Source: Escherichia coli
GTDB taxonomy: Bacteria > Pseudomonadota > Gammaproteobacteria > Enterobacterales > Enterobacteriaceae
Assembly (NCBI RefSeq): GCF_029227855.1
Contig: NZ_CP074356.1
Direction: 5' to 3' (one strand)
Length of the DNA: 64,000 nt
Program-made: the position numbers and the translations under genes
Shown here: one piece after another, positions 57,506 through 60,013 of the stretch
Layout of the letters: each line of letters starts with the position of its first letter
Numbering within the stretch: position 1 is the stretch's first letter
Notes under the pieces: generated by a model
What the model was told of the DNA's origin: nothing
Database searches by the model: none
What the model saw: the letters and a program-made list of their open reading frames with translations, nothing else

Positions 57506-57568
57506 CGCATTAAAAATGCCTGGTAAGCACCCGCTTACCAGGCAACGCATCAAGAACAGGTAATCACC

Positions 57569-58192
57569 GTGCTCAACAAACTCTCCTTACTGCTGAAAGA
57601 CGCAGGTATTTCGCTTACCGATCACCAGAAAAACCAGCTTATTGCCTACGTGAATATGCTGCATAAATGGAACAAAGCGTACAACCTGACTTCGGTCCGC
57701 GATCCTAATGAGATGCTGGTACGCCATATTCTCGATAGCATTGTGGTGGCACCGTATCTGCAAGGTGAACGGTTTATCGATGTCGGCACCGGTCCTGGAC
57801 TGCCTGGCATTCCACTCTCTATCGTGCGTCCTGAAGCCCATTTCACTCTGTTGGATAGCCTTGGTAAACGCGTGCGTTTCCTTCGTCAGGTGCAACATGA
57901 GCTTAAACTGGAGAATATTGAACCAGTACAGAGCAGGGTAGAAGAGTTTCCTTCAGAGCCGCCATTTGATGGCGTAATTAGCCGCGCTTTTGCCTCTCTG
58001 AACGATATGGTGAGCTGGTGCCACCATCTTCCTGGTGAGCAAGGCCGTTTCTACGCGCTAAAAGGGCAAATGCCGGAAGATGAAATCGCTTTGTTGCCCG
58101 AAGAATATCAGGTCGAATCAGTGGTTAAACTTCAGGTTCCAGCCCTGGATGGCGAACGTCATCTGGTGGTGATTAAAGCAAATAAAATTTAA
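57569..58192 (+). CDS. rsmG: 16S rRNA m7G527 methyltransferase RsmG (GidB)
   Basis: 207-aa ORF from GTG 57569: (M)[42 protein letters not shown]. Confidence 0.94.
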
Positions 58193-58279
58193 TTTTTATC
58201 AAAAAAATCATAAAAAATTGACCGGTTAGACTGTTAACAACAACCAGGTTTTCTACTGATATAACTGGTTACATTTAAC

Positions 58280-58326
58280 GCCACGTTCACTCTTTTGCAT
58301 CAACAAGATAACGTGGCTTTTTTTGG
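58280..58326 (+). terminator. Putative terminator downstream of rsmG
   Basis: Inverted repeat gccacgtt...aacgtggc followed by tttttttt (58318-58325); the loop is unusually long, so this is uncertain. Confidence 0.4.
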
Positions 58327-58689
58327 TAAGCAGAAAATAAGTCATTAGTGAAAATATCAGTCTGCTAAAAATCGGCGCTAAGAACCATCATTGGCTGTTA
58401 AAACATTATTAAAAATGTCAATGGGTGGTTTTTGTTGTGTAAATGTCATTTATTAAAACAGTATCTGTTTTTAGACTGAAATATCATAAACTTGCAAAGG
58501 CATCATTTGCCAAGTAAATAAATATGCTGTGCGCGAACATGCGCAATATGTGATCTGAAGCACGCTTTATCACCAGTGTTTACGCGTTATTTACAGTTTT
58601 TCATGATCGAACAGGGTTAGCAGAAAAGTCGCAATTGTATGCACTGGAAAAATATTTAAACATTTATTCACCTTTTGGCTACTTATTGT

Positions 58690-58717
58690 TTGAAATCACG
58701 GGGGCGCACCGTATAAT
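58690..58717 (+). promoter_or_regulatory. atp operon promoter
   Basis: ttgaaa-(16)-tataat (58690-58695 and 58712-58717), roughly 73 bp upstream of the atpI GTG. Confidence 0.7.
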
Positions 58718-58796
58718 TTGACCGCTTTTTGATGCTTGACTCTAAGCCTTAAAGAAAGTTTTATACGACACGCGGCATACCTCGAAGGGAGCAGGA

Positions 58797-60013
<1,217 letters not shown>

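What the first reader, a model, noticed from the sequence alone, without database searches (positions are those of the whole stretch)
58193..58796. Long AT-rich non-coding spacer (about 600 bp) between rsmG and atpI
This is one of the longest intergenic regions in the window. It contains a putative rsmG terminator and the atp promoter (ttgaaa-16-tataat at 58690-58717), but about 350 bp in between (58330-58680) is unassigned and strongly AT-rich with several A/T tracts. It could hold additional atp promoters, nucleoid-protein (Fis, H-NS, IHF) sites or an unannotated small transcript.
Basis: partly seen in the sequence, partly recalled or inferred. Interest (0 to 1): 0.2.

Follow-up and report, generated by a model that had tools for sequence, protein, structure and literature searches.

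The report
Long upstream control region of atp operon
The 600-bp AT-rich gap between rsmG and atpI in E. coli is real but mostly already explained: it holds the rsmG terminator, published ArcA and CRP binding sites, an H-NS-bound "promoter island" and the main ATP-synthase promoter. The less expected result is that these blocks keep almost exactly the same spacing across dozens of enterobacterial genera.

Summary
The window is E. coli, 99% identical to MG1655. The rsmG-atpI gap is 604 bp to the GTG start or 616 bp to the RefSeq ATG. It is the longest intergenic gap in the 64 kb, has 36% GC, and carries no RefSeq feature or Rfam match.

The "unassigned" 350 bp is not empty. Published data place these in it:
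- an ArcA ChIP peak with its box at w58395-58415;
- a high-affinity CRP site at w58547-58567 (SELEX; Footprint-seq Kd about 2 nM; reporter activity lower in a crp mutant);
- H-NS occupancy and one of 78 predicted "promoter islands" (w58094-58533).

My alignment of 62 Enterobacteriaceae species shows discrete blocks at about 90% identity. The sequence between them is about 49% identical, which is below the 58% seen at four-fold degenerate codon sites. Even so, there are almost no indels from the ArcA block to the -10 hexamer. Erwiniaceae keep every block and add 11-12 bp in one interval only.

No ORF and no RNA structure is conserved, and Term-seq lists no RNA 3' end inside the spacer.

Best reading: an rsmG terminator followed by an extended, fixed-geometry upstream regulatory region of atpIp. 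Most parts are already known. The rigid spacing and three conserved blocks with no known binder are the new leads. Interest is low to moderate.

The parts
58280..58324 (+). Intrinsic terminator of the mnmG-rsmG transcript: stem-loop 58280-58317 followed by U7 at 58318-58324.
   Evidence: dG -14.3 kcal/mol, z -3.7, 0 of 200 shuffles fold as well. An abundant short RNA end maps at MG1655 3922927/8(-), which is w58321/2, inside the U run. Only 29 of 62 species have a hairpin plus T-run, at two alternative offsets, so the function is conserved more than the sequence.
58350..58372 (.). Conserved block A, GAAAATATCAGnnnGCTAAAAAT; binder unknown.
   Evidence: At least 85% column conservation in 62 Enterobacteriaceae species, and retained in Erwiniaceae. 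It matches no exact consensus that I tested. On the minus strand it reads CTGATATTTTC, which resembles an extended -10 element; that reading is inference only.
58395..58415 (+). ArcA box CTGTTAAAACATTATTAAAAA, with direct repeats TGTTA and TATTA spaced 11 bp apart.
   Evidence: Park et al. 2013 supplement: ChIP-chip peak at 3920795, ChIP-seq peak at 3920826, box at 3920857-3920877(-), 13 bits, in MG1655 v2 coordinates. The same 21-mer is found at w58395-58415. TGTTAA and TTATTA are conserved at 85% or more.
58414..58432 (.). Conserved block AATGTCAATnnnnnGTTTT next to the ArcA box; binder unknown. It may be a third response-regulator repeat (TGTCA).
   Evidence: AATGTCAAT is conserved at 85% or more across the 62 species, and lies exactly 18 bp from TGTTAAA in 64 of 64 sequences. 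It is kept in Erwiniaceae even where the ArcA second repeat is not. OmpR ChIP binding at atpI is reported in Salmonella, but without coordinates.
58479..58497 (.). Partly conserved block aaTaTCAnaAaGATGaaa, a second AATATCA motif that resembles an IHF site with one mismatch.
   Evidence: Consensus. The exact IHF pattern WATCARNNNNTTR has no match in the spacer, so the IHF assignment is weak.
58547..58567 (+). CRP site taTGTGAtctgaaGCACGctt, centred at 58556.5, about -167.5 from the inferred TSS.
   Evidence: Shimada 2011 Genomic SELEX peak with box CGTGCTTCAGATCACA, and lower activity of the atpI reporter (fragment w58290-58808) in a crp mutant. Footprint-seq gives Kd about 2.2 nM. Located in the window. 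TGTGATC and GCACGCTTT are conserved at 85% or more while the central 4 bases vary. The motif alone is not significant in the window.
58647..58700 (+). Promoter-proximal conserved block. It contains a Fis-like 15-mer GAAAAATATTTAAAC (58647-58661, centre -70), TTAAACATTTATTCAC, GCTACTTATTGTTTGAA and the -35 hexamer TTGAAA (58690-58695).
   Evidence: Most columns are conserved at 85% or more across 62 species. The degenerate Fis pattern matches but is weakly specific: 16 hits in the window against 10 expected.
58712..58717 (+). -10 hexamer TATAAT of atpIp. The TSS is inferred at about 58724.
   Evidence: 11 of 12 consensus positions; 15.3 bits. atpIp is shown to be the main atp promoter by terminator insertion. 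The TSS position is inferred from the hexamer and from my recollection of the 1980s mapping; it was not checked here.
58724..58808 (+). atpI leader of about 85 nt, nearly invariant across genera.
   Evidence: 0.88-0.95 identity. No significant consensus RNA structure (z about 0).
58094..58533 (.). Published 'promoter island' 3920739-3921178 (MG1655 v2), reported as H-NS bound.
   Evidence: Panyukov and Ozoline 2013, Table 1 and Table S1. The coordinate conversion was validated with the ArcA box. My crude PWM finds 2.5-5 times the window density of promoter-like sites.

Best explanation
The spacer is a composite regulatory region of a known kind, with two parts.

First, its left 130 bp ends the mnmG-rsmG transcript at an intrinsic terminator, which insulates the atp operon from read-through.

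Second, the remaining 400 bp or so is an unusually long upstream regulatory region of the single major sigma-70 promoter atpIp (TTGAAA-16-TATAAT). Relative to the inferred TSS it carries:
- a response-regulator site bound by ArcA at about -320;
- a high-affinity CRP site at -167.5;
- a conserved A/T-rich block at about -77 to -36, which resembles a Fis site or UP element;
- at least three further conserved blocks with no known binder.

These are followed by an invariant 85-nt leader.

What is shown: the terminator fold, the core promoter, ArcA binding in vivo, CRP binding in vitro, CRP-dependent reporter activity and H-NS occupancy (the last four from the literature), and the conservation and spacing (computed here).

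What is inferred: because the sequence between blocks drifts freely while its length does not, the bound proteins probably act together in a fixed helical-phase assembly that reaches the promoter by bending or looping. This would tune atp transcription to carbon source (CRP) and respiration state (ArcA).
For: - Terminator.
- Promoter.
- ArcA ChIP peaks and box.
- CRP by SELEX, reporter and Footprint-seq.
- H-NS and the promoter island.
- Identity to E. coli: conserved blocks 0.90, four-fold degenerate sites of rsmG/atpB 0.58, inter-block DNA 0.48-0.50.
- Block spacing: 18 bp in 64 of 64 sequences; 146 bp in 55 sequences (145-147 in 61); 96 bp in 62 of 62; 53 bp in 62 of 62.
- Indels are tolerated in the terminator part of the same spacer, which has 5 extra alignment columns, against 0-2 elsewhere.
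- Erwiniaceae keep all blocks, add 11-12 bp only between the ArcA-side block and the CRP site, and keep the distance from the CRP site to the -10 hexamer at 148-149 bp.
- Ravcheev et al. 2007 mention an unpublished observation of candidate ArcA and Fnr sites upstream of atp that are conserved in many Enterobacteriaceae.
Against: - CRP at -167.5 is far outside the class I and class II activating positions, and no mechanism for action at that distance is shown.
- The ArcA ChIP enrichment is modest (about 3.2-3.3). [quoted passage not shown]
- The locus tolerates 7-kb insertions and is used as a 'neutral' integration site, so the long-range geometry is not essential in the laboratory. The exact insertion point was not available.
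- The Fis and IHF assignments rest on weak motifs.
- AA/TT periodicity peaks near 9.5-9.75 bp rather than 10.5 bp, so it does not clearly indicate phased curvature.
- I had no control intergenic region from the same species set other than the left part of the same spacer.
Confidence: 0.65

Rival explanations
1. It is a 'promoter island': AT-rich DNA with many overlapping promoter-like sites that trap RNA polymerase together with H-NS in a silent, heterochromatin-like state. Such regions yield only abortive or short RNAs and are typical of horizontally acquired DNA.
For: The region is listed as one of 78 promoter islands and as H-NS bound. My crude PWM finds promoter-like sites at 2.5-5 times the window density, placing it in the top 0.3-0.5% of 300-bp windows. 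Short RNAs from this interval are abundant among E. coli secreted RNAs.
Against: The spacer belongs to the core genome. It is present with the same length in 61 other species, and in 5424 of 5426 E. coli genomes, so it is not recent foreign DNA. Conservation is concentrated in discrete blocks of 6-20 bp, two of which are known transcription-factor sites, rather than spread as general AT-richness. The strict consensus scan finds only one promoter against 2.2 expected. The secreted RNA end lies in the terminator U run, so it may simply be the terminated rsmG 3' end.
Confidence: 0.15
2. The spacer encodes an unannotated small RNA, or an antisense RNA to rsmG, or a small protein. Its conserved blocks would then be that gene's promoter and functional core.
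For: On the minus strand block A reads CTGATATTTTC, which resembles an extended -10 element, and a similar motif recurs at 58478-58487. In E. coli a minus-strand promoter-like site (TTAACA-19-TATGAT, 10.5 bits) sits at 58238-58207. Term-seq shows a weak 3' end on that strand at the mnmG-rsmG hairpin (w57511), so an antisense rsmG RNA exists.
Against: There is no Rfam hit. RNAalifold finds no consensus structure on either strand for any segment, with energy 0. No ORF of 15 codons or more is preserved in more than 7 of 61 species. Term-seq lists no 3' end on either strand within the spacer. The minus-strand promoter-like sites are not conserved outside Escherichia.
Confidence: 0.07
3. Apart from the terminator and the roughly 110-bp core promoter, the spacer is neutral filler. 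It could for example be a relic of genes lost between rsmG and atpI; from my own knowledge, parAB sit there in many other gamma-proteobacteria.
For: Inter-block sequence evolves as fast as or faster than four-fold degenerate sites, 0.48-0.50 against 0.58 identity. Large insertions are tolerated. Composition is ordinary for intergenic DNA.
Against: Blocks A, B and C, which lie 160-370 bp upstream of the promoter, are about 90% identical across genera. Length is held to within 1 bp over about 300 bp. Two of the blocks bind ArcA and CRP.
Confidence: 0.06
4. It is an element linked to oriC, which lies about 3 kb away. It would act in replication control or chromosome organisation, like DARS or datA, through DnaA, SeqA, IHF or Fis, rather than in transcription.
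For: The evolutionary pattern of conserved blocks separated by variable sequence of fixed length is the pattern classically described for oriC (from my own knowledge). A DnaA-box-like 9-mer, TTATTCACC, matching 8 of 9 positions, lies in the invariant block at 58664-58672.
Against: There is no cluster of conserved DnaA boxes. Only two GATC sites occur, one of them inside the CRP site. There is no exact IHF consensus. The conserved blocks that have been identified are transcription-factor sites. None of the papers I read reported DnaA binding here.
Confidence: 0.03

Closest known systems
Complex sigma-70 upstream regulatory regions that combine CRP with other factors and nucleoid proteins (examples from my own knowledge: acs P2, nir, malEp-malKp, rrnB P1 with upstream Fis sites)
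   Same: A single strong sigma-70 promoter is preceded by an A/T-rich block resembling a UP element or Fis site at about -70. Global-regulator sites (CRP, ArcA) lie further upstream, there is H-NS occupancy, and site spacing is conserved.
   Different: The sites lie much further upstream (CRP at -167.5, ArcA at about -320) than in the textbook cases. No intervening bender is proven. The target is a housekeeping operon that was reported to be independent of Fnr or ArcA.
'Promoter islands' (Shavkunov/Panyukov/Ozoline)
   Same: The interval w58094-58533 is literally one of the 78 listed islands and is reported as H-NS bound.
   Different: [quoted passage not shown] This one is itself flagged by one of the five gene-level predictors. 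However, it is ancient core DNA with conserved discrete blocks and sits next to a highly active promoter.
oriC-type architecture: conserved protein-binding blocks separated by variable sequence of fixed length
   Same: It shows the same evolutionary signature: block identity about 0.9, inter-block identity about 0.5, and almost no indels.
   Different: There is no DnaA-box array, no AT-rich 13-mers and no evidence of replication function. The resemblance is in the pattern of constraint only.
Intrinsic (Rho-independent) terminators
   Same: A GC-containing stem followed by a U7 run directly downstream of rsmG.
   Different: The loop is long and branched (22 nt), so simple scanners miss it. In other genera the terminator sits about 25 bp further upstream or cannot be detected.

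Membership tests
CRP binding site | Match to TGTGA-N6-TCACA | tested here: met
   TGTGATCTGAAGCACG at 58549-58564. The left half is perfect and the right half matches 3 of 5 positions. This level of match is not significant on its own: 20 sites in the window against 26 expected.
CRP binding site | Binding by cAMP-CRP | not testable with these tools
   From the literature: Genomic SELEX peak and Footprint-seq Kd about 2.2 nM.
CRP binding site | Centre at a class I or class II activating position (-41.5, -61.5, -71.5 to about -93) | tested here: not met
   The centre is 58556.5 and the inferred TSS is about 58724, which gives -167.5. No conserved promoter lies at a suitable distance on either strand.
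CRP binding site | Evolutionary conservation of the half-sites but not of the central spacer | tested here: met
   TGTGATC and GCACGCTTT are conserved at 85% or more, while the 4 central bases vary.
ArcA box | Two or more direct repeats of TGTTA with 11-bp centre-to-centre spacing | tested here: met
   TGTTA at 58396 and TATTA at 58407, the second with one mismatch. The second repeat is not kept in Erwiniaceae.
ArcA box | ArcA occupancy in vivo | not testable with these tools
   From the literature: ChIP-chip and ChIP-seq peaks with enrichment of about 3.2-3.3.
Sigma-70 promoter | -35 and -10 hexamers with a 16-18 bp spacer | tested here: met
   TTGAAA-16-TATAAT, 11 of 12 positions. The hexamers are conserved at 85% or more across the 62 species.
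Intrinsic terminator | Stable hairpin immediately followed by a U run | tested here: met
   dG -14.3 kcal/mol, z -3.7, U7 run.
Promoter island | At least 8 PlatProm-predicted start points per 100 bp over at least 300 bp | tested here: inconclusive
   PlatProm is not available here. My crude PWM gives a 2.5-5-fold enrichment, but only 4-8 sites per 300 bp. The strict consensus scan finds 1 site. The published list includes the region.
Promoter island | Association with horizontally acquired DNA | tested here: not met
   An orthologous spacer of the same length occurs in the other 61 Enterobacteriaceae species, with the blocks also present in Erwiniaceae.
Fis site | G-N3-A-W5-T-N3-C core | tested here: met
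   GAAAAATATTTAAAC at 58647-58661. Specificity is low (16 hits against 10 expected), and binding was not tested.
IHF site | WATCARNNNNTTR | tested here: not met
   The spacer has no exact match. Only one-mismatch versions occur, at 58356-58368 and 58482-58494.
Small RNA or structured RNA | Rfam match or conserved secondary structure | tested here: not met
   No Rfam hit reaches its gathering score. RNAalifold energy is 0 on both strands.
Small protein gene | ORF preserved across species | tested here: not met
   The best ORF is intact in only 7 of 61 species.

The most novel reading that the evidence does not exclude
The roughly 330 bp upstream of atpIp may form an enhancer-like, fixed-geometry nucleoprotein assembly. 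It would comprise ArcA or another OmpR-family regulator, an unknown factor on the AATATCA and ATGTCAAT blocks, CRP at -167.5, and a Fis- or UP-like block at -70. Helical phasing rather than sequence would have been preserved since before the Enterobacteriaceae-Erwiniaceae split. In that case, ATP-synthase transcription would have a long-range control layer that has not been characterised, and the popular atpI-gidB 'neutral' integration site would not be neutral.
Probability: 0.25. Interest if true: 0.5.

Novelty: already known. Interest (0 to 1): 0.27.

Why it matters
The atp operon is among the most highly expressed housekeeping operons, and its dependence on Fnr and ArcA has been disputed. 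The spacer's main components (terminator, promoter, CRP site, ArcA site, H-NS-bound promoter island) are already published, so the finding as written adds little.

Two results could matter:
- The spacer behaves like a precisely measured scaffold. The blocks are about 90% conserved, the DNA between them is at neutral-like divergence, and yet length is fixed to within 1 bp across more than 20 genera. This makes a specific phasing experiment worthwhile, and it points to at least three conserved blocks with no known binder.
- This interval is routinely used as a 'safe' chromosomal integration site. Depending on the insertion point, insertions may separate conserved upstream sites from atpIp.

Tried and rejected
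- Rfam search at a permissive E-value found only two chance-level hits.
- The simple promoter/terminator scan found one promoter and missed the terminator because of its long loop. Folding rescued the terminator.
- A first hairpin at 58220-58250 is not better than shuffled sequence (z 0.22), so I rejected it as a terminator.
- No ORF is conserved.
- RNAalifold found no consensus structure on five segments and both strands.
- AA/TT periodicity peaks at 8.5 and 9.5-9.75 bp, not 10.5 bp. The z-scores are inflated because the sequences are related, so I do not use this as evidence for curvature.
- Searching for a promoter at class I or class II distance from the CRP site, on either strand, gave only weak candidates that are not conserved, such as TTTACG-17-CATGAT.
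- I compared block A by eye with the consensus sites of FNR, Cra, MetR, Fur, Lrp, ArgR and others. None fits, often because the spacing is off by one.
- ArgR ChIP-chip binding at atpI was not reproduced by ChIP-exo.
- Literature dead ends: the Thomason dRNA-seq paper and Kasimoglu 1996 are not held. The H-NS/Fis and IHF ChIP supplements are not held. The Cappable-seq TSS file is truncated well before this locus. One search on 'atpIp' was swamped by plant aquaporin papers.
- The Markelova 2021 table calls position 3922927/8(-) a 5' end. Its handling of strand is inconsistent elsewhere in the table, so I treat it only as an RNA end inside the terminator U run.

Full report
**What the window is.** The sequence is Escherichia coli. 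The 701 bp around the finding match 5424 of 5426 complete E. coli genomes at 95% identity or better. The whole window aligns collinearly to the reverse strand of MG1655 at 98.6-99.1% identity. Around the finding, the MG1655 (NC_000913.3) coordinate equals 3981249 minus the window coordinate. Older v2 coordinates are 1977 lower. I validated this conversion with the published ArcA box, which lands exactly on its sequence in the window.

**Checking the observation.**
- rsmG ends at 58192.
- The gap is 604 or 616 bp. It is the longest gap between annotated features in the 64 kb; the next longest are 480 and 378 bp.
- GC is 0.356 for the gap and 0.339 for 58330-58680, against 0.519 for the window. 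Other promoter-bearing gaps in the window are equally AT-rich, so only the length is unusual.
- TTGAAA-16-TATAAT at 58690-58717 is the only strong sigma-70 match (15.3 bits).
- The rsmG terminator is real. The stem is 58280-58317 and the U7 run is 58318-58324, with dG -14.3 kcal/mol and z -3.7.
- RefSeq annotates nothing in the gap, and Rfam finds nothing.

**What is published for the "unassigned" part.**
- *CRP.* Genomic SELEX found a peak between atpIBEFHAGDC and gidB with the box CGTGCTTCAGATCACA. A reporter carrying w58290-58808 was less active in a crp mutant. Footprint-seq lists taTGTGAtctgaaGCACGctt at 3922697 with an estimated Kd of 2.2 nM. This sequence is w58547-58567.
- *ArcA.* ChIP-chip and ChIP-seq peaks, with enrichment of about 3.2-3.3, come with a predicted box CTGTTAAAACATTATTAAAAA. 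This is w58395-58415. Ravcheev et al. 2007 mention an unpublished observation of candidate ArcA and Fnr sites upstream of atp conserved in many Enterobacteriaceae. The same passage quotes a report that the operon is independent of Fnr or ArcA.
- *H-NS and the promoter island.* Interval 3920739-3921178 (v2), which is w58094-58533, is one of 78 "promoter islands". These are defined as at least 8 predicted start points per 100 bp over at least 300 bp. This one is marked as H-NS bound in two of the three ChIP data sets considered.
- *Short secreted RNA.* Short RNAs from this interval are abundant among secreted E. coli RNAs, with an end at 3922927/8(-). That is w58321/2, inside the terminator U run. 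I read this as the terminated rsmG 3' end, but the table calls it a 5' end.
- *Other reports.* OmpR ChIP binds at atpI in Salmonella. A weak ArgR ChIP-chip signal was not reproduced by ChIP-exo. atpIp is the main promoter of the operon. The gap is a popular integration site for large constructs.
- *Term-seq.* No RNA 3' end is listed on either strand within the gap.

**Comparative analysis.** A scan with RsmG returned 80 species-level loci. Of these, 67 span from rsmG to atpI. In 61 of them the spacer is 612-621 bp. The exceptions are one spacer of 597 bp and five Erwiniaceae spacers of 711-825 bp.

I aligned the 62 spacers of similar length (E. coli plus 61 other species). The alignment shows discrete conserved blocks:

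| Block | Window coordinates | Assignment |
|---|---|---|
| TTTAAC | 58274-58279 | none |
| GAAAATATCAGnnnGCTAAAA | 58350-58370 | unknown (block A) |
| TGTTAA / TTATTA / AATGTCAAT / GTTTT | 58396-58432 | ArcA box plus an unassigned part |
| aaTaTCAnaAaGATG | 58479-58494 | weaker; IHF-like with one mismatch |
| TGTGATC / GCACGCTTT | 58549-58568 | CRP site |
| TTTGCA | 58590-58595 | none |
| near-continuous block | 58647 to the atpI start | Fis/UP-like region, -35, -10, leader |

Identity to E. coli averages 0.90 in the blocks and 0.58 at four-fold degenerate sites of rsmG and atpB. It is 0.48-0.50 in the DNA between blocks. So the inter-block sequence is at neutral-like divergence.

Its length, however, is fixed:
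- TGTTAAA to AATGTCAAT is 18 bp in 64 of 64 sequences.
- AATGTCAAT to GCACGCTTT is 146 bp in 55 sequences, and 145-147 bp in 61.
- GCACGCTTT to TTAAACATTTATTCAC is 96 bp in 62 of 62.
- From there to the -10 hexamer is 53 bp in 62 of 62.

The terminator-proximal part of the same spacer does accumulate indels in the same species, with 5 extra alignment columns against 0-2 elsewhere. This serves as an internal control.

Erwiniaceae retain all the blocks. They add 11-12 bp, about one helical turn, only between the ArcA-side block and the CRP site. They keep the distance from the CRP site to the -10 hexamer at 148-149 bp.

**Excluding other causes of length constraint.** No ORF of 15 codons or more is intact in more than 7 of 61 species. 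RNAalifold finds no consensus structure on either strand, with energy 0. Coding sequence and structured RNA therefore do not explain the absence of indels. A DNA-level spacing constraint is the remaining explanation. This step is inference.

**Mechanism.** I commit to the following reading. The left 130 bp terminate the mnmG-rsmG transcript. The remaining 400 bp or so form an extended upstream regulatory region of atpIp. Taking the TSS as about 58724, which is inferred from the -10 hexamer, the positions are:
- block A at about -363;
- the ArcA box at about -320;
- the IHF-like block at about -236;
- the CRP site at -167.5;
- the Fis-like 15-mer at -70.

CRP at -167.5 cannot act by the standard class I or class II contacts. 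No conserved promoter sits at such a distance from it on either strand. The fixed spacing therefore suggests that the sites work together through bending or looping. This part is inferred, not shown.

The Fis assignment rests on a low-specificity motif, and no exact IHF consensus exists in the spacer. AA/TT periodicity gave no clean 10.5-bp signal. The tolerance of the locus to 7-kb insertions argues that the long-range part is not essential in the laboratory.

**Rivals.**
- The promoter-island reading is literally applicable, and my PWM confirms a 2.5-5-fold excess of weak promoter-like sites. But the typical association of such islands with foreign DNA fails here, and conservation lies in discrete factor-type blocks.
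- A hidden small RNA, antisense RNA or small protein lacks support. A weak antisense-rsmG transcript does exist, however, and it could start in the gap.
- Neutral filler is contradicted.
- An oriC-related function has only the evolutionary pattern and one DnaA-box-like 9-mer in its favour.

**Verdict.** The main binders are ArcA, CRP and H-NS, and all of these are already published. The new elements are the rigid geometry and the conserved blocks with no known binder. Novelty: already known. Interest: about 0.27.

Noticed in passing
window 58862 (inside atpI, 53 nt after ATG 58809): Term-seq (Adams et al. 2021) lists a very strong ORF-internal RNA 3' end at MG1655 3922387(-), with scores of 92,464 and 134,774. 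This implies an abundant RNA of about 139 nt running from atpIp through the invariant leader into the start of atpI. It could arise by attenuation or by processing.
   Followed up: partly
window 57511, minus strand; hairpin 57519-57546 between mnmG and rsmG: Term-seq lists a weak 3' end on the strand antisense to rsmG and mnmG, just after the mnmG-rsmG hairpin. The hairpin therefore acts as a bidirectional terminator, and an antisense-rsmG transcript exists. Its start is unknown. In E. coli a minus-strand promoter-like site (TTAACA-19-TATGAT, 10.5 bits) lies at 58238-58207, in the spacer.
   Followed up: partly
window 58724-58808: The atpI leader of about 85 nt is nearly invariant across more than 20 genera (0.88-0.95 identity) but has no significant predicted consensus structure. 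It contains a TTGACT -35-like hexamer at 58734-58739. The reason for such strong conservation is unexplained.
   Followed up: partly
Both codons and the upstream AGGGAGCAGGAGT are conserved across genera, so the alignment does not decide between them.
   Followed up: no
window 58233-58238, 58274-58279, 58308-58312, 58326-58330, 58396-58401: The pentamer GTTAA or its complement TTAAC recurs at five conserved positions across the left half of the spacer. One copy is the first ArcA repeat. The others have no assignment.
   Followed up: partly
window 58664-58672: TTATTCACC, inside the invariant promoter-proximal block (-60 to -52), matches the DnaA box TTATNCACA at 8 of 9 positions. The spacer has no other conserved DnaA boxes, so this is probably coincidental.
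   Followed up: no
loci L020, L049, L061, L079 and others, first 175 nt after rsmG: The rsmG terminator is not conserved in position. About half of the species have a hairpin plus T-run. It sits either about 100-105 nt or about 120-130 nt after the stop codon, while total spacer length is maintained.
   Followed up: partly
loci L069, L075, L076 (Pantoea, Erwinia): Erwiniaceae spacers are 100-200 bp longer, mostly upstream of block A. They also carry one 11-12 bp insertion between the ATGTCAAT block and the CRP site. The ArcA second repeat (TATTA) is replaced, while ATGTCAAT is retained.
   Followed up: partly
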